NCBI GenBank assembly: GCA_021819825.1
Contig: JAKAEZ010000011.1
Coordinates: forward strand, 6,209 to 70,208
Length of the DNA: 64,000 bases
Direction: 5' to 3'
Source: Planctomycetota bacterium
Lineage (GTDB): Bacteria; Planctomycetota; Phycisphaerae; WQYP01
In this document: piece by piece, positions 37,918 to 64,000 of the stretch
Layout of the letters: every line of letters begins with the position of its first letter
How positions within the stretch are numbered: the first letter of the stretch is position 1
Position numbers and translations under genes: made by a program
The notes under the pieces: generated by a model
Seen by the model: the letters and a program-made list of their open reading frames with translations, nothing else
The model's database searches: none
Told to the model about the DNA's origin: nothing

Positions 37918-38997
37918 TTAGCGCTGATATAGCGGCAAATAATGGTAGGGTACGCATAACGCCAGCACCGCCATGGCCGTCGCATAAGCTTTGGACCCTT
38001 GCTGCTCAATGCCGTCCTTGGGGGTCCAGGAGCCATTGCTATTTTGTAATTGAATTAATTCATGGCGGATAGTACCGTAAATCTGCTGGTAATATTTGCC
38101 ACCCAATTCATTGGCCGCCTGACTGCAATAATAGACCGCATAAAAATAAAAATTCTCATTGGGTGATAGCGGATGATTCAATAAAAAATCTCCGCCCGCG
38201 ATGGCCTGGTGTGAATTTCTCTGGCCCATAAGTTCTAACGCCAGAATTCCGGTACCCGTGCGTGCGCGCCCTGGGGGGCCGCCCGGCTGATACGCGAAGC
38301 CGCCATTGACGTTGGCATCGCGCAGCACGAACGCGATACCATTTTTGATCGCCGCCGCGGGAATGGCCGCTCCGCAGTCCGCCGCGCCCCGCAGGGCCAT
38401 GAGTTGCCAGCCCGTGCAGGAAATATCCGCATCCGTTGCCGTGGGCTGATACCGCCAGCCGCCCGCAAAAATGCCACGCGAATTTTTTTGTGCCGCAAGA
38501 ATTAGCGCCACCGCCTTGGCTAAAACCTTTCCAATACGCTTGCGCAACGTCGGATTTGCCACACCATAAGCCTCTGAGAGCATCACCGTGGATATGCCGT
38601 GATCATACATGGTGCCGCCGGGCACAGTGATGTACCCATCGGGGAGTTGGTGCTCCAGCACCCAGTTGATGCCCCGATCAATGACCTGATGGTGGGGCCC
38701 GGTGCCCGGAGTGTATCCGCGCGCTAAAAATGCCATCACCGCCAGAGATGTCACGGCGGGGCGGTCATTGCGGTTGCAGGGGAATGTTCCACTGGTTTTC
38801 TGATGTTTCGTCAGCCACCCAAGCCCATGGGCGATCGCGCTTTTTACATACACCGCAATGGGGCGTTCTGCCTGCACTGCGGTTACGTTCAGCGAAAGAC
38901 CGGCCGAGATAATTGCAATCGCAGCCAGGACGACCGGCCGCCGATAGCGGATACGTTTGATAAATCCTGTCTGTGGTAATGGTGAGCAAAAAATCAT
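37918..38997 (-). CDS. Secreted prenyltransferase/squalene-oxidase-repeat (alpha/alpha-toroid, terpene-cyclase-like) protein
   Basis: It has an N-terminal signal/anchor and repeated G-G-W/F-x-Y motifs (GGWRYQPT, NGGFAYQPGG, NGSWTPKDG). Its ATG overlaps the upstream stop (ATGA at 38997-38994). Confidence 0.6.
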   Translation of the reverse strand: MIFCSPLPQTGFIKRIRYRRPVVLAAIAIISAGLSLNVTAVQAERPIAVYVKSAIAHGLGWLTKHQKTSGTFPCNRNDRPAVTSLAVMAFLARGYTPGTGPHHQVIDRGINWVLEHQLPDGYITVPGGTMYDHGISTVMLSEAYGVANPTLRKRIGKVLAKAVALILAAQKNSRGIFAGGWRYQPTATDADISCTGWQLMALRGAADCGAAIPAAAIKNGIAFVLRDANVNGGFAYQPGGPPGRARTGTGILALELMGQRNSHQAIAGGDFLLNHPLSPNENFYFYAVYYCSQAANELGGKYYQQIYGTIRHELIQLQNSNGSWTPKDGIEQQGSKAYATAMAVLALCVPYHYLPLYQR

Positions 38998-41900
38998 CGC
39001 ACCCGCATTTCTGAAAGCCGGATGTAATAGTCACGCACCATGCGTTTATAGCCGGCGGGAATATTTTGCCGCGCTGTATTTAACAATTGTCGTTTGGCCA
39101 GTGGGCCTAGATTGCTCCACTGGGCCGGACTGATTCCCATAGCCAGTACCGGCTTGGGCGGCGCGCCCGCGGGGCCGCCGGGGCCGGTCATGCCGGTGGG
39201 GTTGCCGCTTAAGCCTTGGCCTGCTGCGCCGGGGGTGCCGGCCTGACCCGCCATGGCCACACCCTCACCGCTACCGCCGGTCGGTGCGCCCCGATTGCCA
39301 TTTGCACCTTGCGTATTCATGGTTTCTCCCGCCGCTCCAAGGGATTGCGCCGCCTGTTGTGCCGCCTGTGAATTCCCCTGCCCGGCCTGCTGTTGGGCCT
39401 GCAGGGCATTTTGTACCTGTTGGGCGGCGGACATAATGCGCTGGTAGGAACTTTGGCCGGTCTGGGCCTGTTGGTTGCCGCTGGGGCCGTTATTGCGATT
39501 CGCCGGCTGCTTGTCTGCGCCTTTGCCGTCGGTTCGGTTCTGCTGCTGGATTTGTCCGGCAATCATGTTTTTATATTGCGGTACATTCCGCATTTCCGGC
39601 GAATGCAAGGCCCCATTTAAATCATCCAAGGCAATCCGTAAGTGTTGTAGAGCAGATTGCTGATGTTCCACGGCTGCTGCCTGGTTTAATTTGCCAAGGG
39701 CCCGCGCGGAATCTTTTTGGTCACGTGTTCCTGATTGCATCTGCCGACGCGCTTGAGCAATATCTGAATTTAAATCCGGTGCACCGGTCTGGGTTTGCTG
39801 CTCAAGCTTTTTGGCAAGCGCTGCGGCTTCCGCAATTTGATCGGCAATCTTTCGGGCATTTTGTGCCTGCTGCCCCGGATTTACCGCGGGTGCGGCAATC
39901 TGAGCCATCAATTGTCTTGTCTTTGCGGCCAACTGTTGCTGCTGTTGTGCCAGTTGGTTGGCATTGCGGGCCAACTGCTGGAGTTGTCCGCTTTGGCCGG
40001 CGTGTGTTTGGGTGTGTGCCAACTGCTGCTGCACCGCGTTATTCATAAATTGCTGGGCACGTTGCAGCGACGCCGAGGCCTGCTCCGCATTCTGATCCGC
40101 CGCCGCCCGCATGGCCGCCTGAGCCTGCGTCATGGCGGCATTGAGGTTTTGAGCTTCCGTCTGCGTGGGAGCCTGGTTGAGCATTTTTTGGGCCAATTGA
40201 TTCATTGCACCGGCTGCGCGCTGCAGGGCGTTGGCTTGCTGCACGGGTGAGGTATTGCCTTGGGGATTGGTTGCCGCATTGATATGCGCAAGTTGATGCT
40301 CATTGGCCATTGCCGCCTGATGAGCCTGCCGCTGTTGCGGCGTGGGGGGCTGTGCCGCGTGATTTAAATTAGCAGCGGCTTGTTGCAGATTGCGGGCAAT
40401 GTTGTTCTGGCCTTCCAAGGCCGCCGGCCCTGCATGTTGCCGCAGATTGCTTACTACAGCATTCATTACTGGTTCATTGGGCAAATTCGGTTGTGCCTGA
40501 TCCGCGGATTTGGCTGATGTTTCAAGGGCTTTAATGTGCTTATTGAGCTGTTGCTGCTGGACGGCAAGCTGCGCGATCCGCGTTTTTGCCCACTGGGCGT
40601 GTAATTGCTGCTGGAGCGTGGCGGTCGCTTGTTGCTGAGCGGAGATAATTTGTCCCAGTTGATTTTTCAAGCTCGCCATGGTGGGTTGCACCTTTGCGGC
40701 TACCGGCGTTTGTAACGCCTTGTGTTGCTGCAGAAGTTTGACGAGCTGGCGATGTAATGTCTGCTGCTGACGCTGCACGTTGGGTGAATTCGGTTGTTCG
40801 GTCATTTTTTTCGCTAACGCCCGTTGTCGCCGGGCCAGAGTTTTCAAACTGTCCGCCAGTTGTTGTTGGCCCGCCTGTTGGGCCATCTGCTGTTGAAGTT
40901 TGTTTAGCGCCTGTTGCGACTGCCCGAGGTTCTGTTGCGCTGCCGCCAGATCGGCGTTCCGTTGTGCGGATTGTTGCGGCGTGGCGAAACTGGCGGCCGC
41001 CACATTATTGGCGGCCTCGGGTAAATGTTGTTCAGCGGCTGCGGCGGCTTTCTGAGCGTTTGTTGAAAAAGCGGAATTTTGGGATGCTTTAGCTGCCGCC
41101 TGCAAATTATCCACCGTCTGGGCCAGATTCTGCTGCAGTTGTTCCGCCGCGCGTTTTTGTCCATCTGAAAATCGTCGATTTCCCGGCGTGCGCTGTAAAT
41201 TGGCGATACGTTGCTTATCTCTATTAATGGTGTTTTGCGCTTTGGCAATGGCGGCCTTTACCGCGCGATAGGCCGCCATGTCTCGCCGCTGCTGATAGCT
41301 TTGCTGCAAATGCCGGTCGATGAGCAGTTCATGCAGGGCGGTGCGGGTTTTCTGATGCCCTGGCCGGCGGTTGTCGATCGCTTCAAGTCGATAGAATATT
41401 GCTCTGGCATGGGGGCGGTCGGCGGTCAAGAGTTGATCCGCGACTGACAGATTCCAGGTTTGTTGCACATGCCGGGGATCTTTCATTCCCAAATCAATGT
41501 TGTAACTCATCGGCAAAGAATGGCCTACCGTGACAATGGCCTGCACCCCGGAAAGTCCAAATTCATCCGATGCGTCAAACAGAATCGGCACGGAATCATC
41601 CACGCGCACCCGCACGCGCCGGGCCGGCTGCACAATGTGAATTAGCGGCGGTTGATCCGGAATCGCGACGATGGGCCATAAATGATTATCGTTGTTTTTT
41701 ATTCCCTGCGCATTGATCAGATTGATGCGATAGGTGCAACTGTACTCTACCGGAAAGGTTGCCTGATATTCCAGGCCGGTCAGTTGCGTCAACGGCAGCG
41801 GTTGCACCACGCCGGCCACGGGCGTGCCCATGGCGACAAAACTTTTCTTCGCCAACGGTTCGGAAGCATGAACAATTAATTGCACCTGCGTGCCGATGAT

Positions 41901-42938
41901 AGCTTTAATTGAACCGTTTTTTCCTGCCGTGCTCCGAGCCGGCAGGGCGGTGTATGCTGGGAAAGTGTACTTGATTTGCAATTCGGAAATGCGCGGCCGG
42001 GCGATAACATTCGCGTGATACCACGGGCTTTGGGCGTTTCCTGATGTAAGTTGATAGCGGAATGTTCCCGCAATATCCGTGAGATTGGCACGAAAGATAT
42101 TGGGCCCGATGTGCGTCATCGCGATCAGCCGCTGCGATCCGGCGGTATTGGTCAAATTCAACGTCATGGATCGCACGGGCTTACCCCCCAGCGGCGGCCT
42201 GGCTTTGCCGAGAATTTCCAGATTAGCTCCCTGCCCCAGCGTGATATCCCCCGGCGTTACATGGATAGCCAGGCGTGAGGCCACCGCCGCGCTCCAGGGG
42301 GCGAAAATCCGCCGCACGCCGGTAGTTACCGTTTGCGGAAATAACGGCCAGAGAATCAGCCACGCCAGAACCGCCGGTATACAATAGACCGCCCATTGCA
42401 TAATAGTTTTACGGGATAAAACCCTGTCGACATCAATACGATCGGTATGCGCCTGTGCTTCCGCAATGACATGGCGCACCATTTCCGGTGACGCGTGTTC
42501 CACCGGCGGCGGACTTTGGGAAAATTCAACGGCACTGATAATGCGCTCTTCATGTTCCGGCTCGCGCTGTTCCACCATCCCCGCCGCCGCCTGCAGGTCC
42601 AGTTCACGCCAGACAGGCCGCAGCAGCCCCACCGTAACGGCAATCATGCTGCTCCATGCCGCAATCGCTATCATCCATCGCAACACCGGCGGCATGGTCG
42701 GCTGCCCACCCAAGAGCAATACCACCAGCAGAGAAATCAACAGACAAATCAGTATCGCCTTGAGCAGGGCGCTAATAATCTGTAATCGCCGATGGCGTCC
42801 GGCCACATGGGCGAGAATTTCCACAATATTCGTCGGCAATGCACCCGGTGCGTCCGAGCTGGTGTGTAGTGTGTTTTCCGGCATGGTTAAAACCTCGCCA
42901 AAAAGGAAGTCCATTCCGGGCTTCCAATGAATGAACAC
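38994..42938 (-). CDS. 1314-aa membrane-anchored protein with N-terminal TM helices, a beta-rich middle region (DUF4175-like) and a Q/A-rich low-complexity coiled-coil region of about 670 aa
   Basis: It is a single long ORF. The N-terminus has TM helices and AAGMVEQREPEHEERIISAVEF. The middle region contains YTFPAYTALP. The tail is Gly/Pro-rich and ends IPAGYKRMVRDYYIRLSE. The true start may be the Met at 42884. Confidence 0.7.
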   Translation of the reverse strand: MFIHWKPGMDFLFGEVLTMPENTLHTSSDAPGALPTNIVEILAHVAGRHRRLQIISALLKAILICLLISLLVVLLLGGQPTMPPVLRWMIAIAAWSSMIAVTVGLLRPVWRELDLQAAAGMVEQREPEHEERIISAVEFSQSPPPVEHASPEMVRHVIAEAQAHTDRIDVDRVLSRKTIMQWAVYCIPAVLAWLILWPLFPQTVTTGVRRIFAPWSAAVASRLAIHVTPGDITLGQGANLEILGKARPPLGGKPVRSMTLNLTNTAGSQRLIAMTHIGPNIFRANLTDIAGTFRYQLTSGNAQSPWYHANVIARPRISELQIKYTFPAYTALPARSTAGKNGSIKAIIGTQVQLIVHASEPLAKKSFVAMGTPVAGVVQPLPLTQLTGLEYQATFPVEYSCTYRINLINAQGIKNNDNHLWPIVAIPDQPPLIHIVQPARRVRVRVDDSVPILFDASDEFGLSGVQAIVTVGHSLPMSYNIDLGMKDPRHVQQTWNLSVADQLLTADRPHARAIFYRLEAIDNRRPGHQKTRTALHELLIDRHLQQSYQQRRDMAAYRAVKAAIAKAQNTINRDKQRIANLQRTPGNRRFSDGQKRAAEQLQQNLAQTVDNLQAAAKASQNSAFSTNAQKAAAAAEQHLPEAANNVAAASFATPQQSAQRNADLAAAQQNLGQSQQALNKLQQQMAQQAGQQQLADSLKTLARRQRALAKKMTEQPNSPNVQRQQQTLHRQLVKLLQQHKALQTPVAAKVQPTMASLKNQLGQIISAQQQATATLQQQLHAQWAKTRIAQLAVQQQQLNKHIKALETSAKSADQAQPNLPNEPVMNAVVSNLRQHAGPAALEGQNNIARNLQQAAANLNHAAQPPTPQQRQAHQAAMANEHQLAHINAATNPQGNTSPVQQANALQRAAGAMNQLAQKMLNQAPTQTEAQNLNAAMTQAQAAMRAAADQNAEQASASLQRAQQFMNNAVQQQLAHTQTHAGQSGQLQQLARNANQLAQQQQQLAAKTRQLMAQIAAPAVNPGQQAQNARKIADQIAEAAALAKKLEQQTQTGAPDLNSDIAQARRQMQSGTRDQKDSARALGKLNQAAAVEHQQSALQHLRIALDDLNGALHSPEMRNVPQYKNMIAGQIQQQNRTDGKGADKQPANRNNGPSGNQQAQTGQSSYQRIMSAAQQVQNALQAQQQAGQGNSQAAQQAAQSLGAAGETMNTQGANGNRGAPTGGSGEGVAMAGQAGTPGAAGQGLSGNPTGMTGPGGPAGAPPKPVLAMGISPAQWSNLGPLAKRQLLNTARQNIPAGYKRMVRDYYIRLSEMRVR

Positions 42939-59064: not shown

Positions 59065-59109
59065 AGGCGGTCGCTGGCCGGAAAATAAAGCGCCTGCTAT
59101 AGTGTGTAC

Positions 59110-60876
59110 ATGGCAGCAGGTTACACAGTTTTGGCTCGGCGGTACCGCTCGCAGAACTTCGACCAACTCATTGGTCAGGAAGCAATCGCCACGACGTTGA
59201 AAAACGCCGTATCCACCGGGCGTTTGGCCCATGCTTTCCTCTTCACCGGCACCCGCGGAGTTGGGAAAACGTCATCTGCCCGCATTCTGGCAAAGGCGAT
59301 TAACTGCCCGAATTCCGGCGGTGGCCAGCCGTGCGGCCAATGCCCGACCTGCAAAGCCATTGCCGCCGGCGAAGATATTGATGTTATTGAAATCGATGGA
59401 GCCAGCAACAACGGTGTTGATCAGATTCGTGATTTAAGGCAAAGTGCCGGTATTACGCCCAGCCACAGTAACTTTAAGATATATATTATTGACGAAGTTC
59501 ACATGTTGTCGATGGCGGCGTTCAACGCCTTGCTGAAAACCCTGGAAGAACCGCCTCCGCACGTAAAATTCATTTTTGCCACCACCGATGTGCATAAAGT
59601 TCCGGCCACGATTTTAAGTCGCTGTCAGCGCTATGACTTTAAAAACATTCCCGCCGCCCGCATCACCGACCATTTGATGGAAATCTGTCGGCAGGAAAAT
59701 GCCGAGGCGGAAAAAGCAGCGCTGCATCGTATCGCGATTCTGGCCGCCGGGTCCATGCGGGATGCGCTTTCACTGCTGGATCGGGTGTTGTCCCTGGGCG
59801 CGGGACGGATCACTGAAAAGCTGCTGGATGATCTGCTGGGTAAGCCATCCCTGGCCAACATGACGGACTTGGCGGCGGCAATGGCGGCGGGGGACGCGGC
59901 GGCGGTGCTGAAGCTTTCTGATCGGATGCTTCTGGAAGGCATGTCTGCGGAGCAGGTGCTTAGCGAATTAACAGATCTGTTGCGTCATTTGATGATTCTG
60001 CGCGTGTGCGGGGCGGAAACGGAAATTTTGGATATTCCAGGTGAATGGCGGGGCGCTCTGGTAAAGCTCGCCCCCGCATTTGATGCTTCGCTGCTGGTGC
60101 ATCATATTGCATTATGCGATCAGACACTACGCTCTTTGCGTGGCTCAACCATGCAGCGGCCTTTATTTGACGCCTTAATGGTTCGACTGGCTATGGCGGG
60201 GCAGTTCAGCAGTATCCGGCAGATACTGGAATCAGGACAACTGCCGCCTCCGGACGCGCAAAAAAAAAATGATTCACCAAGCATTGCAGTCCAGCCCGAC
60301 TCCCCGCATGTGACAATTTCCACCCGACCGCAAAGCCGCCAACTCACCAGTCCGCCCTCTTCGCAACCGCCGCCGGACTCGCCGGCACCGTTGCGGTCGC
60401 CCGCGCTGACCGCCACCGTTACGCCCAGTGTTGAAGACGGCAACTCAATGTGGGAATCCGTGGAAGCGTATCTGCTGGAAAATCAGGGGGCTTCCCTGGT
60501 TAATTTGCTTAATGGCCAAGCGCGCATTATTTCTTCGGATGTCGGCACGGGTGCAATAAAATTGGAAGTGCCCGGTCACACGCATACCATGGTGAGTAGT
60601 GATCGCTACATGCGGATGATTGAGACGGCTTTTGCGGCGCAAATGGGCAAAGCGTGTCGCCTGGAAATTATCGCTGCAGCGCGCCCGGTCGCCATGGCTG
60701 CGCCCCAGGCAATCGCGCCGGTTCGTCCGGCCCCTGTGTCCAGCCCGCGCGTTTCCCCGGAGTTAATGAAACGTGCCCAGGACATGCCCGCCGTTAAGCT
60801 GTTGATGGAAAAAATGGGGGCAAAACTTGTGAATGTGGAACCGCTGGAAGTCAGTTCGGAACCTTCGGATCATTGA
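59110..60876 (+). CDS. dnaX: DNA polymerase III subunits tau/gamma
   Basis: It has YRSQNFDQLIGQE, FTGTRGVGKTS, the Zn module CGQCPTC, IIDEVHMLS and SRCQRYDF. Confidence 0.92.
   Translation: MAAGYTVLARRYRSQNFDQLIGQEAIATTLKNAVSTGRLAHAFLFTGTRGVGKTSSARILAKAINCPNSGGGQPCGQCPTCKAIAAGEDIDVIEIDGASNNGVDQIRDLRQSAGITPSHSNFKIYIIDEVHMLSMAAFNALLKTLEEPPPHVKFIFATTDVHKVPATILSRCQRYDFKNIPAARITDHLMEICRQENAEAEKAALHRIAILAAGSMRDALSLLDRVLSLGAGRITEKLLDDLLGKPSLANMTDLAAAMAAGDAAAVLKLSDRMLLEGMSAEQVLSELTDLLRHLMILRVCGAETEILDIPGEWRGALVKLAPAFDASLLVHHIALCDQTLRSLRGSTMQRPLFDALMVRLAMAGQFSSIRQILESGQLPPPDAQKKNDSPSIAVQPDSPHVTISTRPQSRQLTSPPSSQPPPDSPAPLRSPALTATVTPSVEDGNSMWESVEAYLLENQGASLVNLLNGQARIISSDVGTGAIKLEVPGHTHTMVSSDRYMRMIETAFAAQMGKACRLEIIAAARPVAMAAPQAIAPVRPAPVSSPRVSPELMKRAQDMPAVKLLMEKMGAKLVNVEPLEVSSEPSDH
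60260..60272 (+). promoter_or_regulatory. dnaX: Candidate recoding/slippage site in dnaX: an A10 run followed by a -1-frame TGA
   Basis: Codons 384-387 read CAA AAA AAA AAT. A shift of -1, or one extra A in the mRNA, gives CAA AAA AAA AAA TGA. Confidence 0.4.
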
Positions 60877-60914
60877 ATCGCAAAATCATGAAGAATATTC
60901 AGAAATGAGGAACC

Positions 60915-61265
60915 ATGTTTGATTCGCTAAAATCTCTGGGCCAGCTTGGGCCTTTAATGGCTAAAGCCCGGGAAATGCAAACTAAAATGGCGGAAGTGCA
61001 GCAGAAACTCGGCGATATTAAAGCTGAAAGTTCGGCTGCGGGCGGAATGATTACTGTCACCGCCAACGGCCGCATGGAAATTATAGAATTGTACTTTTCG
61101 CCTGATGCCGTGCGCCTGGAGGCACCGGTGCTGGCGGATTTAACCCGCTGTGCCGTCAATGACGCGCTGGTGAATGTTCGCAATAGGGTGCAGCAGGAAA
61201 TGCAGGGGGTGGCCGGCGATATGGATTTATCCGGAATTCAAAAAATGATGGGAATGCCTTCATGA
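60915..61265 (+). CDS. ybaB: Nucleoid-associated protein YbaB/EbfC
   Basis: It has LMAKAREMQTKMAEVQQKL...GGMITVTANGRMEI and sits in the conserved dnaX-ybaB-recR order. Confidence 0.9.
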   Translation: MFDSLKSLGQLGPLMAKAREMQTKMAEVQQKLGDIKAESSAAGGMITVTANGRMEIIELYFSPDAVRLEAPVLADLTRCAVNDALVNVRNRVQQEMQGVAGDMDLSGIQKMMGMPS

Positions 61266-61891
61266 CAGACCATTCCATTGCTTACAGCGCCAGCGTCCGG
61301 CGACTCATGGACATGCTTGGGCAATTGCCCGGTGTCGGCAGTCGCTCCGCGGAGCGGATGGTTTTTCACATCCTCAAAGCCAGTTCTGAAGATGCATTGG
61401 CGTTAGCGGATGCTATTCGCGCTGTTAAGCAACAGGTCCGTCATTGCAGTACATGTTATCACTTAACGGAATTTGACCCGTGTGAAATTTGTCGCAATCC
61501 CAGCCGCGACACATCCGTGATTTGTGTTGTCGAACAACCTAAGGATTTGTTTCAAATTGAAGCCACCGGCACCTATAGGGGGGTGTACCACGTTTTGCTG
61601 GGGCACCTGGCCCCTTTAGATGGTATTACTCCGGAAAATCTCACCGTTGACGCTTTGGTCGCCCGCATAGAGCAACGTGATGCGACGGGAAATCCGCTGA
61701 TTCGGGAAGTTATTATCGCCACAAATCCGACCATGGACGGGGACGGTACGGCGCTTTATTTACAAAGTCGTCTGGAAAATTCCGGCGTGGTTATTACGCG
61801 GCTGGCTCGCGGCCTGCCGACCGGAGCGCAGATTGAACACGCCAACAAGGCTATCCTGGCTGATGCTCTCTCCGGACGCATTAAAATGTAA
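61262..61891 (+). CDS. recR: Recombination protein RecR
   Basis: It has LPGVGSRSAERMVFHIL (HhH), CSTCYHLTEFDPCEIC (Cys4) and a Toprim region VICVVEQPKD. It overlaps ybaB with an ATGA. Confidence 0.95.
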   Translation: MTDHSIAYSASVRRLMDMLGQLPGVGSRSAERMVFHILKASSEDALALADAIRAVKQQVRHCSTCYHLTEFDPCEICRNPSRDTSVICVVEQPKDLFQIEATGTYRGVYHVLLGHLAPLDGITPENLTVDALVARIEQRDATGNPLIREVIIATNPTMDGDGTALYLQSRLENSGVVITRLARGLPTGAQIEHANKAILADALSGRIKM

Positions 61892-62110
61892 GATGAAATG
61901 TAAGTTCGCCGCCGCGCTGCGGTGTGGAATAATTCCGTTCGGCAAAACCCGACCGCGGTAAACGTCCATGCAAAGGACATATCGGCTTATCGAGTTCGGT
62001 GGGCGCGTGCGCACCAGTCGCTGGCATACGCCTGATGGTGATCAGGCCACGTTTTTCGGCATGGCAGCCTCGGCCGCCGTCGGCGGATTCCCAAAGCAAA
62101 AATAATTCAC

Positions 62111-62142
62111 TTGACCTTACACCTAAGTGCAAGGTGTACAAT
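62111..62142 (+). promoter_or_regulatory. MerR/CueR-family-type promoter: TTGACC, 20-bp spacer containing a 7-7-7 dyad, then TACAAT
   Basis: The -35 is TTGACC (62111-62116) and the -10 is TACAAT (62137-62142). The dyad is TACACCT (62118-62124) / AGGTGTA (62132-62138). An over-long spacer with a centred dyad is the hallmark of MerR-family activated promoters. Confidence 0.45.
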
Positions 62143-62230
62143 TACCCAGTCATCCAAATTCCGGGCTATCCCGGCTTATCTGGAATGAGGATTATTTGGG
62201 TACAAGCCGGGCTTAATAAGGAGGTGTCCT

Positions 62231-62437
62231 ATGAAGGGCACACTGTTATCGCTGGCCGTAGCGTTGCTGGCGGCGGGTATTGGATTGCCGGGGCTGGCCA
62301 ACGCCGGTCCGAGGGTTCCGGGGCATTCAATCACCAGTGCATTGAAGGTAATGACTGCCAAGTGCAAGGAACCCCAGTGCAATCCGAAGGCCCCGCGCTG
62401 CAACAAGCCCGGGTGTCAGCCTGGCTGTTGCCACTGA
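62231..62437 (+). CDS. Secreted Cys-rich peptide (68-aa precursor; 7 Cys and a terminal His in the last 25 residues)
   Basis: A strong SD (taaggagg) lies 6 nt before the ATG. The signal peptide is MKGTLLSLAVALLAAGIGLPGLANA. The C-terminus is KCKEPQCNPKAPRCNKPGCQPGCCH. It lies between the MerR-type promoter and merA. Confidence 0.55.
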   Translation: MKGTLLSLAVALLAAGIGLPGLANAGPRVPGHSITSALKVMTAKCKEPQCNPKAPRCNKPGCQPGCCH

Positions 62438-62470
62438 TCGGCTTTAGCGGTGGAACCGCCAGCCTCGCTT

Positions 62471-62522
62471 CACCGGGCAACCGTGCAGGCGCGTGCATCA
62501 CTACGCCTGCACGGTTCCGGTG
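62471..62522 (+). other. Strong intercistronic stem-loop between the Cys-rich peptide gene and merA
   Basis: AACCGTGCAGGCG (62479-62491) pairs perfectly with CGCCTGCACGGTT (62504-62516). The stem extends through CACCGG/CCGGTG with a 2-nt bulge. No U-tract follows. Confidence 0.55.
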
Positions 62523-62574
62523 GGTTTGAATTGCTAAGTTGAATACCGCGGATTGTGCGGAGAAATGAGTGTAT

Positions 62575-64000
62575 ATGATTTCTTGTTGTGGTAACGGTGG
62601 GTGTGAAGATTCAGTTGAAAGTTTGATTATTATTGGCGGCGGGTCCGCCGCATTTTCAGCCGCCACGCGTGCGGTGGAACTCGGGGCTAAAAAAGTCACC
62701 ATCATGAATGATGGCTTGCCGACGGGGGGTACTTGTGTAAATGTCGGCTGCGTTCCTTCCAAAACCCTGATCCGCGCTGCTGAGTCACTGCATCGCGCAA
62801 CGCACAATCGCTTTGCCGGCATTAAGACCAGTGGGATACTGACGGATTTTTCCGCCGTTATTGAAGAAAAGCGTCAACTGGTTGCTGATCTGCGGCAGGC
62901 CAAATATGTCAACGTGATCCAGGATTTGCCGCAGGTGCGGTTGGTCAAAGGGCACGCCAAGCTGCTTGATGCTCGTAGCGTGCAGGTGGGTGAGATGCGG
63001 CTGTCAGCCGACCATATTCTTATAGCGACCGGCGCTACCGCCGGGATACCGAATATTCCGGGGTTGTCTGAAGCGGGTTATTTAACGAATGAATCGGCGT
63101 TTGACTTGGAAACTCTGCCGGAGTCGCTGATCGTTCTGGGCGGACGATATATCGCGCTGGAATGCGCACAGATGTTCGCGCGGCTGGGCAGCCATGTAAC
63201 GGTGCTGCAAAGATCGAATCGTATATTGCCTGCGGAATCTGAGGATATCACCAACGCGTTGACGGGCTATCTCACGGAGGAAGGCTTGGAGATTCTCACC
63301 GCTGTTGCCGTTGAACGGGTTCATCGTGGGAAGCAGGGCGTTGTTGTAATGGCTAAAATCAATGGTGAAAGTCGGGAACTTACCGCCTCGCAAATTCTTG
63401 TGGCCACCGGCCGTAGACCCAACACCCGTAATATGGGCTTGGAAAATGCCGGCGTGTTGCTTGATGACCGCGGCTATATTCAAGTCAGTCCAACGCTGCA
63501 AACTACGTTGCCCGGCGTTTGGGCGGCGGGGGATGTACTGGGACAGAATATGTTTGTCTACACGGCGGCCTACGAAGGCGCGCTGGCGGTAGAAAACATG
63601 CTAACCAAAGCGGATCGGGTAGCGGATTATACCGCGTTGCCATGGGTGATCTTCACCGATCCGCAGGTTGCCGGTGTGGGCATGGATGAGCGGCAGGCTG
63701 TTGCGGCAGGCCATGATGCTGAGGTTGCCACATTGCCTTTGAGCCATGTCCCACGCGCTATTGCCGCCCGTGACACGCGTGGTCTGATCCAACTGATCCG
63801 CGATAAGAAAACCGATTTGCTGCTGGGTGCCCGAATTCTGGCTCCGGAAGGCGCGGAACTGCTGATGGAATTGGCCATGGCGATCAAATTCGGCATTTCA
63901 GTTACGCAACTGCGCAACAGTTTCCATGCGTATTTGACACTGAGCGAAGGAATCAAACTGGCGGCGATTACTTTTGGTAAAGATGTTGCGCAATTAAGTT
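62575..64000 (+). CDS. merA: Mercuric reductase core (no NmerA/HMA domain); the 3' end runs off the window
   Basis: Not in the ORF track because no stop lies in the window. Hand translation gives MISCCGNGGCEDSVESLIIIGGGSAAFSAATRAVELGAKKVTIMNDGLPTGGTCVNVGCVPSKTLIRAA...VWAAGDV...LPWVIFTDPQVAGVG...SFHAYLTLSEGIKLAAITFGKDVAQLS. The MerA C-terminus normally continues with CCAG. An alternative GTG start lies at 62569, 6 nt after GGAG. Confidence 0.85.
   Translation, partial: MISCCGNGGCEDSVESLIIIGGGSAAFSAATRAVELGAKKVTIMNDGLPTGGTCVNVGCVPSKTLIRAAESLHRATHNRFAGIKTSGILTDFSAVIEEKRQLVADLRQAKYVNVIQDLPQVRLVKGHAKLLDARSVQVGEMRLSADHILIATGATAGIPNIPGLSEAGYLTNESAFDLETLPESLIVLGGRYIALECAQMFARLGSHVTVLQRSNRILPAESEDITNALTGYLTEEGLEILTAVAVERVHRGKQGVVVMAKINGESRELTASQILVATGRRPNTRNMGLENAGVLLDDRGYIQVSPTLQTTLPGVWAAGDVLGQNMFVYTAAYEGALAVENMLTKADRVADYTALPWVIFTDPQVAGVGMDERQAVAAGHDAEVATLPLSHVPRAIAARDTRGLIQLIRDKKTDLLLGARILAPEGAELLMELAMAIKFGISVTQLRNSFHAYLTLSEGIKLAAITFGKDVAQLS

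What the first reader, a model, noticed from the sequence alone, without database searches (positions are those of the whole stretch)
62231..62437. Secreted Cys-rich mini-protein in the position where mer operons carry merT/merP
The 68-aa precursor has a textbook signal peptide (cleavage predicted after ANA) and a mature peptide of about 43 aa ending KCKEPQCNPKAPRCNKPGCQPGCCH. That is 7 Cys with Pro/Lys spacers and a vicinal CC-His terminus. It has a near-perfect SD and lies between a MerR-type promoter and merA. It has neither the ferredoxin-like HMA fold nor the GMTCxxC motif of MerP, and no merT, merC or merF transporter gene is present. It could be a novel periplasmic thiol-rich Hg/Cu/Au scavenger or hand-off peptide, a metallothionein-like buffer, or a disulfide-rich signal peptide.
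Basis: partly seen in the sequence, partly recalled or inferred. Interest (0 to 1): 0.62.

Follow-up and report, generated by a model that had tools for sequence, protein, structure and literature searches.

The report
Secreted cysteine-tailed peptide in mercury operon
A real, conserved 68-residue gene for an exported, cysteine- and proline-rich peptide opens the mercury-resistance operon of a group of mine-drainage Phycisphaerae; it is most likely an optional mercury-binding helper outside the cytoplasm, from a protein family nobody has described.

Summary
The ORF (62231-62437, +) is real. It has a strong ribosome-binding site and a Sec-type signal peptide. It sits between a MerR-type promoter/operator (62111-62142) and merA (62575 to the window end).

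- The peptide has 6 Cys, not 7.
- "No merT" is a window-edge artefact. On longer contigs carrying the same gene, merA is followed at once by a merT::HMA (MerT-MerP) fusion and merR.

About a dozen sequence clusters of homologues exist, all in Phycisphaerae/Planctomycetota from mine drainage, tailings and sediment. Every one looked up lies directly upstream of merA-merTP, whatever lies further upstream. dN/dS is 0.2-0.27, and the Cys tail is the most constrained part. Only the signal peptide and the C-terminal PGCC[H/R/Q] are near-universal. Internal Cys number varies from 3 to 8, which argues against a disulfide scaffold and for free thiolate ligands. The gene has been deleted or degraded repeatedly in sister operons, so it is accessory.

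No Pfam, NCBIfam, PDB or literature match was found, and AlphaFold predicts no fold.

Best reading (about 0.55): a Hg(II)-induced, exported, disordered thiolate peptide that captures Hg(II) in the periplasm and buffers it or passes it to MerTP. Binding, export and phenotype are untested.

The parts
62111..62142 (+). MerR-type promoter/operator: -35 TTGACC (62111-62116), 20-bp spacer, -10 TACAAT (62137-62142). The 9-4-9 dyad ACCTTACAC (62114-62122) / GTGCAAGGT (62127-62135) lies inside the spacer.
   Evidence: Read. Single match in the window with 0 expected in shuffles. Nearly invariant in all related mer loci, and also present in front of a redoxin-HMA gene in L014/L015/L017/L028.
62153..62191 (+). 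Conserved stem-loop in the 5' leader (ATTCCGG...CCGGAAT core). It belongs to a leader (62143-62217) that is more conserved than the peptide coding region.
   Evidence: Alignments A1 and A5. RNAalifold predicts 13 pairs, one with a compensatory CG->GC change. The leader is also present in operons that lack the peptide.
62218..62224 (+). Shine-Dalgarno AAGGAGG, 6 nt upstream of the ATG.
   Evidence: Conserved in alignment A1. In L020 and L022-L024 the same leader and SD run straight into merA; L026 and L063 carry a more diverged form of the same arrangement.
62231..62305 (+). Signal peptide, residues 1-25 (MKGTLLSLAVALLAAGIGLPGLANA); predicted SPase I site ANA|G.
   Evidence: 12-residue hydropathy maximum 2.5. 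The -3/-1 small residues are conserved in homologues. Cleavage is inferred, not tested.
62306..62359 (+). Variable linker, residues 26-43 (GPRVPGHSITSALKVMTA).
   Evidence: Least conserved segment (dN 0.137 and 0.35 in two pairs; alignment).
62360..62437 (+). Basic Cys/Pro/Lys tail, residues 44-68 (KCKEPQCNPKAPRCNKPGCQPGCCH), plus the stop codon. 6 Cys; the C-terminal PGCC-x is the near-universal motif.
   Evidence: dN 0.017 against dS 0.635 versus L015. The PGCC[HRQ] ending is kept in nearly all intact homologues. Tail pI 8.4-10. AF2 pLDDT 54, no fold.
62471..62522 (+). Strong intergenic hairpin (core arms 62479-62491 / 62504-62516) between the peptide gene and merA. No U-run follows it.
   Evidence: MFE structure. 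Not scored as a terminator. Conserved in A1 and retained in L018, which has lost the peptide gene.
62575..64000 (+). merA (mercuric reductase), cut off by the window end. The full protein is 479 aa. It has no NmerA/HMA domain, an N-terminal MISCCGNGGC tail, and a C-terminal ...SCCAT seen on L001.
   Evidence: TIGR02053, 518.5 bits against cutoff 454.45; Pfam Pyr_redox_2/dim; full length on L001.

Best explanation
The ORF encodes an accessory component of a Phycisphaerae mercury-resistance operon. The operon reads: operator - peptide - merA - merT::HMA - merR.

Proposed mechanism:
1. Hg(II)-bound MerR activates the long-spacer promoter at 62111-62142. The peptide gene is the first cistron and has the strongest ribosome-binding site.
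2. The 68-aa precursor is exported by Sec and probably cleaved after ANA. This releases a basic, proline-rich, intrinsically disordered peptide of about 43 aa into the periplasm.
3. Its free thiols, above all the conserved C-terminal vicinal Cys-Cys, bind Hg(II) by thiolate ligand exchange.
4. The peptide then acts as a diffusible periplasmic Hg(II) sink. It probably also donates Hg(II) to the membrane-tethered HMA domain and the TM1 Cys-Cys pair of MerTP. MerTP would pass Hg(II) to the Cys-Cys tails of MerA for reduction to Hg(0).
5. It improves the system but is not required for it.

Shown: the gene is real, under purifying selection, always linked to merA-merTP, behind a MerR-type operator, and dispensable.
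Inferred: export and cleavage, the reduced thiol state, Hg(II) binding, and the direction of transfer.
For: 1. Coding and selected. dN/dS is 0.20-0.27 in intact pairs. The Cys tail is by far the most constrained part (dN 0.017, dS 0.635).

2. A small, specific family. Word-indexed and exhaustive HMM searches of 5.8e9 and 1.84e9 proteins give about 12 clusters of 68-82 aa, all from Phycisphaerae/Planctomycetota.

3. Invariant synteny in varied surroundings. Every member looked up sits directly upstream of merA -> merT::HMA. The upstream neighbour differs: recR, merR, or a redoxin-HMA fusion.

4. Hg-type control. The dyad-in-20-bp-spacer promoter is conserved in all these loci. The MerR has its best NCBIfam match to TIGR02051, though below cutoff, and carries Cys at the three expected positions.

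5. What is conserved points to ligand chemistry, not fold. The signal peptide and the C-terminal PGCC[HRQ] are kept. Internal Cys count and spacing drift from 3 to 8, including odd numbers. AF2 gives pLDDT 54.

6. Vicinal Cys-Cys on flexible ends recurs in the same operon's proteins: MerA N-terminal SCCGNGGC and C-terminal SCCAT, MerTP N-terminal NCCTPK and TM1 ACCWLP. Established knowledge of MerA, MerT and MerF says this motif is used for Hg(II) hand-off.

7. Habitat. The sequence is found in mine drainage, tailings and sediment metagenomes.

8. Related loci place a TlpA/ResA-like periplasmic thiol reductase fused to HMA behind a second copy of the same operator. That is a plausible way to keep exported thiols reduced.
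Against: - There is no biochemical or genetic evidence of any kind: no proof of export, cleavage, Hg binding or phenotype.
- The gene is often lost. L018 has a clean 249-bp deletion. L020, L022-24, L026, L027 and L028 lack it. L025 has a nonsense codon plus two Cys->Arg changes. L021/P0004 and P0002 lost the CC end. Any benefit is therefore conditional or small.
- The operon already has a MerP-equivalent HMA domain. Outgroup operons with the same MerTP fusion work without such a peptide.
- A periplasmic peptide with 6 Cys could be oxidised.
- The lysine-rich, basic character is unusual for metal-binding proteins.
- Transcript evidence is weak. Metatranscriptome contigs cover relatives at about 87% identity, but they extend upstream of the -35, so DNA carry-over or read-through is not excluded.
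Confidence: 0.55

Rival explanations
1. Membrane-anchored helper rather than soluble peptide. The N-terminal hydrophobic segment is not cleaved and acts as a signal-anchor. The product is then a single-pass inner-membrane peptide whose CC tail reaches into the periplasm. It would feed Hg(II) to MerTP, or be a minimal importer partner, in the manner of the small mer membrane proteins MerE/MerF.
For: Only one hydrophobic segment exists, about 20 residues long if the Gly/Pro c-region is counted. MerF and MerE are also 78-81 aa proteins with Cys pairs (established knowledge). The basic tail would sit well on an anionic membrane surface. Synteny and regulation fit equally well.
Against: The segment has the classic n-h-c layout: a helix-breaking Pro at -6 and small residues at -3/-1. 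That layout is conserved across homologues although the residues themselves change (ANA, VMA, VSA, ASA). This is what SPase I substrates look like. There is no Pfam MerF/MerE/MerT/MerC hit at E<=1, and hhalign against MerTP gives 6.8% probability.
Confidence: 0.15
2. Sacrificial periplasmic thiol/redox buffer. The peptide is not a specific Hg carrier. It is an abundant decoy that protects envelope protein thiols and DsbA/DsbC-type systems from Hg(II). It may be recycled by the redoxin-HMA protein, or lost with bound Hg.
For: First-cistron position and strong SD suggest stoichiometric abundance. A TlpA/ResA-like redoxin-HMA sits behind the same operator in related loci. Loose conservation of internal Cys number fits bulk thiol capacity. 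Dispensability fits a buffer.
Against: The strongest constraint is on one specific terminal motif (PGCC-x), not on Cys count. P0014 keeps only 3 Cys but retains PGCC. The redoxin-HMA gene does not co-occur strictly with the peptide: L028 has it without the peptide, and the window locus has the peptide without it nearby. This rival overlaps largely with the best explanation.
Confidence: 0.12
3. Regulatory leader peptide or upstream ORF. Translation of a Cys-codon-rich short ORF, together with the downstream hairpin, tunes merA-merTP expression, for example by sensing Cys-tRNA or thiol depletion. The peptide itself would have no function.
For: The ORF lies in the 5' region of the operon. A strong conserved hairpin sits between it and merA (62471-62522). 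Six Cys codons are clustered in 23 codons.
Against: - Selection acts on the amino-acid sequence (dN/dS 0.2-0.27), and a Sec signal peptide is conserved, which a leader peptide does not need.
- The ORF is long (68-82 aa).
- Its stop lies 33 nt before the extended stem (41 nt before its core arms), and the hairpin has no U-tract.
- The hairpin persists in L018 without the ORF. Other operons lack both the ORF and the hairpin, and their merA follows the leader/SD directly.
Confidence: 0.06
4. Disulfide-rich secreted peptide with a non-metal role (signal, antimicrobial or envelope-structural peptide, or RiPP precursor) that merely travels with the operon.
For: It is small, secreted, Cys-rich and basic, a composition shared with many disulfide-stabilised peptides.
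Against: - The Cys framework is not conserved (3, 4, 5, 6, 7 or 8 Cys, with shifting spacing). Disulfide-stabilised peptides normally keep their frameworks.
- No maturase, radical-SAM, protease or ABC-exporter gene is conserved next to it.
- It is never found outside the operator-merA interval.
Confidence: 0.05

Closest known systems
MerP (periplasmic Hg(II)-binding protein of mer operons; HMA fold, GMTCxxC)
   Same: Sec signal peptide. Encoded in a MerR-controlled mer operon ahead of merA. Presumed to bind Hg(II) through a pair of Cys thiolates in the periplasm and pass it to MerT. Dispensable for resistance in classical operons (established knowledge).
   Different: No sequence or fold relation: no HMA hit and no GMTCxxC motif, and AF2 predicts no fold. 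It is about half the size, basic, Pro-rich and probably disordered. The ligand is a C-terminal vicinal CC rather than CxxC on a loop-helix. It coexists with a true MerP-like HMA domain fused to MerT.
C-terminal Cys-Cys tail of MerA and the vicinal Cys pairs of MerT/MerF
   Same: A vicinal CC on a flexible terminus used to acquire and hand over Hg(II) (established knowledge). The same operon shows SCCAT, SCCGNGGC, NCCTPK and ACCWLP.
   Different: Those are parts of cytoplasmic or membrane proteins. Here the CC tail is a free-standing exported peptide.
PcoE / SilE periplasmic metal 'sponges' of copper and silver resistance systems
   Same: Small, exported, intrinsically disordered. Metal-induced. 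Accessory first-line binders that buffer metal in the periplasm beside the main machinery (established knowledge; the disorder here is inferred).
   Different: PcoE and SilE use Met/His motifs for Cu(I)/Ag(I) and are about 120-145 aa. This peptide uses Cys, is about 43 aa when mature, and belongs to a Hg system. There is no sequence similarity (no Pfam hit).
Bacterial metallothioneins (SmtA/BmtA, MymT) and the exported copper storage protein Csp1
   Same: Cys-rich thiolate metal buffering. Csp1 shows that Cys-rich metal stores can be exported.
   Different: SmtA/BmtA and MymT are cytosolic, and SmtA/BmtA and Csp1 are folded (zinc-finger-like fold, four-helix bundle). Csp1 is Tat-exported. No hit to these families. 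The metal cluster chemistry is different from the linear bis-thiolate coordination expected for Hg(II).

Membership tests
MerP (TIGR02052 / Pfam HMA PF00403) | Ferredoxin-like beta-alpha-beta-beta-alpha-beta HMA domain detectable by the family models | tested here: not met
   No Pfam or NCBIfam family at E<=1. AF2 model has pLDDT 54, pTM 0.17 and only two short helices.
MerP (TIGR02052 / Pfam HMA PF00403) | GMTCxxC metal-binding motif | tested here: not met
   Absent from the sequence. Cys spacings are CX4C, CX6C, CX4C, CX3C, CC.
MerP (TIGR02052 / Pfam HMA PF00403) | Cleavable Sec signal peptide and mer-operon location | tested here: met
   n-h-c architecture with ANA|G, conserved in homologues. 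Located between the MerR operator and merA. Cleavage itself was not tested.
Small mer membrane transporters (MerT, MerF, MerE, MerC) | Two or more transmembrane helices and a match to the family models | tested here: not met
   One hydrophobic segment only. No Pfam hit. hhalign against a MerTP alignment gives 6.8% probability.
Small mer membrane transporters (MerT, MerF, MerE, MerC) | Vicinal or closely spaced Cys pair used for Hg(II) transfer | tested here: met
   C-terminal CC (residues 66-67), conserved as PGCC[HRQ] in nearly all intact homologues.
Bacterial metallothionein (SmtA/BmtA, PF02069) | Family model match with the conserved Cys/His cluster pattern; cytosolic | tested here: not met
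   No Pfam, NCBIfam or PDB-sequence match. Has a signal peptide. The Cys pattern is not conserved within the family.
PcoE/SilE-type periplasmic metal sponge | Exported, intrinsically disordered in the apo form | tested here: inconclusive
   Low-confidence AF2 model and Pro/Gly/Lys-rich composition are compatible with disorder but do not prove it.
PcoE/SilE-type periplasmic metal sponge | Met/His-rich metal-binding motifs | tested here: not met
   The mature part has 1 Met and 2 His. The candidate ligands are 6 Cys.
MerR-type activated promoter | Over-long (19-20 bp) spacer between -35 and -10, containing a dyad operator | tested here: met
   TTGACC-20 bp-TACAAT with a 9-4-9 dyad. Conserved in 27 related loci. 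Hg responsiveness is not testable here.
RiPP precursor peptide | Conserved neighbouring maturation enzyme(s) and leader/core organisation | tested here: not met
   Neighbours are only mer genes, recR, merR or redoxin-HMA.

The most novel reading that the evidence does not exclude
This would be the first natural example of a free-standing, secreted, natively disordered thiolate 'mercury chaperone or sponge'. It would be a mer-operon component of about 40 residues, unrelated to MerP, whose working part is little more than a C-terminal Pro-Gly-Cys-Cys on a basic Pro/Lys-rich thread. It would shuttle Hg(II) across the periplasm to a tethered MerTP. That would add a new gene to the mer repertoire (beside merP/T/C/E/F/G/H) and give a minimal natural Hg(II)-binding tag.
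Probability: 0.4. Interest if true: 0.65.

Novelty: new variant of a known kind. Interest (0 to 1): 0.5.

Why it matters
Mer operons are among the best-studied resistance systems, yet almost nothing is known about them in Planctomycetota. A 2021 survey listed a single planctomycete MerA (PMC8261052).

If the reading is right, the periplasmic capture step can be done by something much simpler than the HMA fold. This clade would also run a relay built almost entirely from vicinal Cys-Cys tails: peptide, MerTP N-terminus and TM1, MerA N- and C-termini.

Practical value: a natural, secretable Hg(II)-binding sequence of about 40 residues would be useful for biosensors and bioremediation constructs.

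Evolutionary value: the many independent losses give natural with/without pairs (for example the window against L018, or L016 against L024). These could be used to ask when the peptide pays off.

Tried and rejected
- Pfam and NCBIfam scans of the peptide at E<=1: nothing.
- PDB sequence search with the mature peptide at E<=10: nothing.
- AlphaFold2 with the family alignment: pLDDT 54, no fold. No fold search was run, because a low-confidence model gives meaningless matches.
- Rfam on 61850-62650 at E<=1: only noise hits (a plant miRNA and a lncRNA model, far below gathering score).
- Terminator/promoter scan. No terminator lies between the peptide gene and merA. The sigma-70 scan misses the promoter because it allows only 16-18 bp spacers.
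- Origin from MerT TM1 or MerTP: hhalign probability 6.8%, rejected.
- The alternative overlapping frames are not conserved. The 176-aa + frame at 61999..62529 is split in L012. The 163-aa minus-strand ORF at 62331..62822 is antisense to merA.
- Leader-peptide attenuation: rejected on geometry and on conservation of a signal peptide.
- Literature: three full-text searches found no description of such a peptide or of Phycisphaerae mer operons. PMC9948709 (mine-drainage MAG study) does not mention it.
- Transcription: metatranscriptome contigs from two hot-spring runs cover relatives of the leader, both ends of the ORF, and merA at about 87% identity. They reach upstream of the -35, so this is only weak support. 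Mine-drainage RNA runs gave only a short generic merA match.

Full report
**1. What is at the coordinates**

The + strand ORF 62231..62437 encodes the 68-aa protein MKGTLLSLAVALLAAGIGLPGLANAGPRVPGHSITSALKVMTAKCKEPQCNPKAPRCNKPGCQPGCCH.
- AAGGAGG lies at 62218-62224, 6 nt before the ATG.
- The N-terminus has the n-h-c layout of a Sec signal peptide: MKG, a hydrophobic core, Pro at -6, and Ala-Asn-Ala at -3 to -1. This is read directly from the sequence. No signal-peptide predictor was available, so cleavage is an inference.
The tail is basic and proline-rich.

**2. The immediate surroundings in the window**

At 62111-62142 there is TTGACC, a 20-bp spacer, then TACAAT. A 9-4-9 dyad (ACCTTACAC / GTGCAAGGT) sits inside the spacer. 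This is the architecture of promoters activated by MerR-family regulators (established knowledge). The sequence is unique in the window and not expected by chance.

The ORF that starts at 62575 and runs off the window is a mercuric reductase: TIGR02053 gives 518.5 bits against a curated cutoff of 454.45, with the Pyr_redox_2/dim Pfam domains.

Upstream lie dnaX, ybaB and recR.

**3. What lies beyond the window edge**

The identical peptide is encoded on 11 public contigs. On the long ones (L001, 101 kb; L002) merA is 479 aa and ends ...SCCAT. It is followed at once by two genes:
- A 261-aa MerT+HMA fusion. It has CC in TM1, a CAPGEVC loop and a C-terminal GMDCQEC domain. With three TM segments and an N-terminus inside, the HMA domain is periplasmic, which makes it a tethered MerP.
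- A 142-aa MerR-family regulator. Its best NCBIfam match is TIGR02051 MerR (below cutoff), and it has Cys at the three expected positions.

The peptide is an extra component, not a replacement.

**4. Is the ORF a real gene?**

Yes.
- Homologues exist.
- Between intact copies dN/dS is 0.20-0.27, against 0.07-0.10 for the adjacent merA. Constraint is concentrated in the Cys tail: dN 0.017 against dS 0.635 for window versus L015.
- The overlapping 176-aa frame is broken in L012. The antisense 163-aa ORF lies on the opposite strand of merA.
- Cys-richness alone would not have been convincing. 9 of 485 six-frame ORFs of 40-150 aa in this window have >=5 Cys in their last 30 residues; at least five of them, at 39253-41055, are antisense readings of a Gln/Ala-rich gene.

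**5. The family**

A word-indexed search of 5.8 billion proteins with a family profile was run, followed by an exhaustive HMMER profile search of 1.84 billion cluster representatives. Together they found only about a dozen clusters of 68-82 aa. Beyond those there were only low-complexity false positives. All named sources are Phycisphaerae/Planctomycetota MAGs or metagenomes, and the only annotation is 'hypothetical protein'.

Runs holding the window sequence come from mine drainage, mine tailings and sediment metagenomes.

Two things are conserved: the signal peptide and the C-terminal Pro-Gly-Cys-Cys-[His/Arg/Gln]. A C-K-x-P-x-C element is common. The number of Cys in the exported part ranges from 3 (P0014) to 8 (L041) and includes odd numbers. 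Insertions of Pro/Lys-rich spacer occur, as in P0006 and P0007.

The family has no Pfam, NCBIfam or PDB-sequence relative. AlphaFold2 with the family alignment predicts no fold: pLDDT 54, pTM 0.17.

**6. Genomic linkage**

Every family member whose context could be read lies directly upstream of merA, followed by merT::HMA. The gene further upstream varies:
- recR in the window lineage;
- merR for P0003, P0006, P0008, P0014 and P0018;
- a redoxin-HMA fusion for P0001 and P0011.

The same operator precedes all of them. This is strong comparative evidence for a role in the Hg response.

**7. Presence and absence**

An NJ tree of MerA (no bootstrap) was built from 51 related loci in GTDB genomes plus the loci above. 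The peptide occurs from the deepest Phycisphaerae branches (L041, L071, L075) to the crown. It is missing at scattered tips.
- L018 (MerA 94% identical) has a clean 249-bp gap equal to window 62218-62466. The gap removes the SD, the ORF and 29 nt more, and keeps the leader and the downstream hairpin.
- In L020 and L022-24 the conserved leader and SD run straight into the merA start codon. L026 and L063 keep the leader in a more diverged form.
- L025 has TGA at codon 6 and two Cys->Arg changes.
- L021/P0004 carries a 43-nt insertion with a stop that removes the CC end. P0002 also lacks it.
- Outgroup operons (Pirellulaceae, Verrucomicrobiota, Gemmatimonadota and others) have merTP upstream of merA and no peptide.

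The simplest history is one gain at the base of this MerA clade, followed by repeated loss or recombinational replacement. The peptide is therefore accessory.

**8. Mechanism proposed**

The constant features are export, a flexible basic Pro-rich thread and a terminal vicinal Cys pair. The Cys framework is variable. That is the opposite of what disulfide-stabilised peptides show, and it is what is expected of thiolate ligands.

The same operon's proteins carry vicinal CC on flexible ends throughout:
- MerA N-terminus SCCGNGGC, in place of an NmerA domain;
- MerA C-terminus SCCAT;
- MerTP N-terminus NCCTPK;
- MerTP TM1 ACCWLP.

In the classical system such pairs relay Hg(II) by ligand exchange (established knowledge of MerA, MerT and MerF).

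I therefore propose the following. The peptide is made first and most abundantly on Hg(II) induction. It is exported and binds Hg(II) through its thiols, chiefly the terminal CC. It then acts as a diffusible periplasmic sink and probable donor to the tethered HMA domain and TM1 pair of MerTP.

Related loci place a TlpA/ResA-like thiol reductase fused to HMA behind a second copy of the operator. That could keep exported thiols reduced.

None of these steps (export, reduced state, binding, transfer) has been tested. Confidence is about 0.55.

**9. Rivals**

- An uncleaved signal-anchor version, giving a membrane-tethered CC tail like a one-helix MerE/MerF: 0.15.
- A non-specific sacrificial thiol buffer, which overlaps with the main idea: 0.12.
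- A regulatory leader ORF acting with the 62471-62522 hairpin: 0.06. This is disfavoured for four reasons. Selection is on the protein. A signal peptide is conserved. The stop is 33 nt before the extended stem, which has no U-tract. The hairpin persists without the ORF, and other operons lack both the ORF and the hairpin.
- A disulfide-rich peptide or RiPP with a non-metal role: 0.05. This is disfavoured by the variable Cys framework and the lack of any maturase.

**10. Comparison with known systems**

- Functionally it resembles MerP (periplasmic Hg(II) capture). It fails both defining features, the HMA fold and GMTCxxC.
- It resembles MerA/MerT/MerF Cys-Cys tails in chemistry.
- It resembles PcoE/SilE 'sponges' in being a small, probably disordered, metal-induced periplasmic accessory. 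It uses Cys rather than Met/His.
- It is not a bacterial metallothionein by sequence or location.

I found no paper describing it. A 2021 survey of mer diversity lists a single Planctomycetes MerA (PMC8261052).

I rate it a new variant of a known kind: a non-homologous, minimal periplasmic Hg-binding accessory.

**11. Expression**

Metatranscriptome contigs from two hot-spring runs match relatives of the leader, both ends of the ORF, and merA at about 87% identity. One contig continues upstream of the -35, so DNA carry-over or read-through cannot be excluded. RNA runs from the mine-drainage study gave only a short generic merA match. This is weak support only.

**12. Verdict**

Interest is moderate. 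This is a genuine, undescribed, narrowly distributed mer-operon gene with a plausible and easily testable mechanism. It is dispensable and so far supported only by comparative genomics.

Noticed in passing
window 62143-62217 (stem-loop 62153-62191): The 5' leader between the -10 and the SD is more conserved than the peptide coding region. It is kept even in operons that lack the peptide. It contains a conserved stem-loop (ATTCCGG...CCGGAAT) with one compensatory CG->GC pair. No Rfam family matches. It may be a regulatory or stabilising RNA element of Phycisphaerae mer operons.
   Followed up: partly
window 62471-62522: A strong hairpin (13-bp core, extended by CACCGG/CCGGTG) lies between the peptide gene and merA, with no U-run. 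It is conserved and is retained in L018 after deletion of the peptide gene. It could set the peptide:MerA expression ratio or be an RNA processing or stability site.
   Followed up: partly
window 62575-62604; L001 10345-11784 and 11811-12596: MerA here lacks the NmerA/HMA domain. Instead it starts with a short Cys-rich tail, MISCCGNGGC. The MerT::HMA fusion has an extra cytoplasmic N-terminal NCCTPK pair, conserved across the clade except in L026 and L028. The whole pathway seems built from vicinal Cys-Cys tails.
   Followed up: partly
L014 4686-5790 (also L015, L017, L028, L069-L071): A 325-347-aa TlpA/ResA-like thiol:disulfide oxidoreductase fused to an HMA domain sits behind a second copy of the same MerR-type operator in related loci. 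This suggests a Hg-induced periplasmic thiol-reducing activity in this clade.
   Followed up: partly
window 59104-61891 versus related loci: In the window lineage the mer operon sits directly after dnaX-ybaB-recR, with merR last. In relatives it follows merR or redoxin genes. In outgroup phyla merTP precedes merA. So both the operon's position and its gene order have been rearranged.
   Followed up: partly
window 38994-42938 (- strand); + strand ORFs at 39253-41055: A 1314-aa Gln/Ala-rich protein with an N-terminal membrane segment is encoded on the minus strand. Its antisense frames produce a cluster of spurious Cys-rich ORFs on the + strand.
   Followed up: no
L014 6813-6930: An inverted second copy of the operator/leader segment follows the peptide gene on this contig, in place of merA. 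It is probably an assembly chimera or a local inversion.
   Followed up: no
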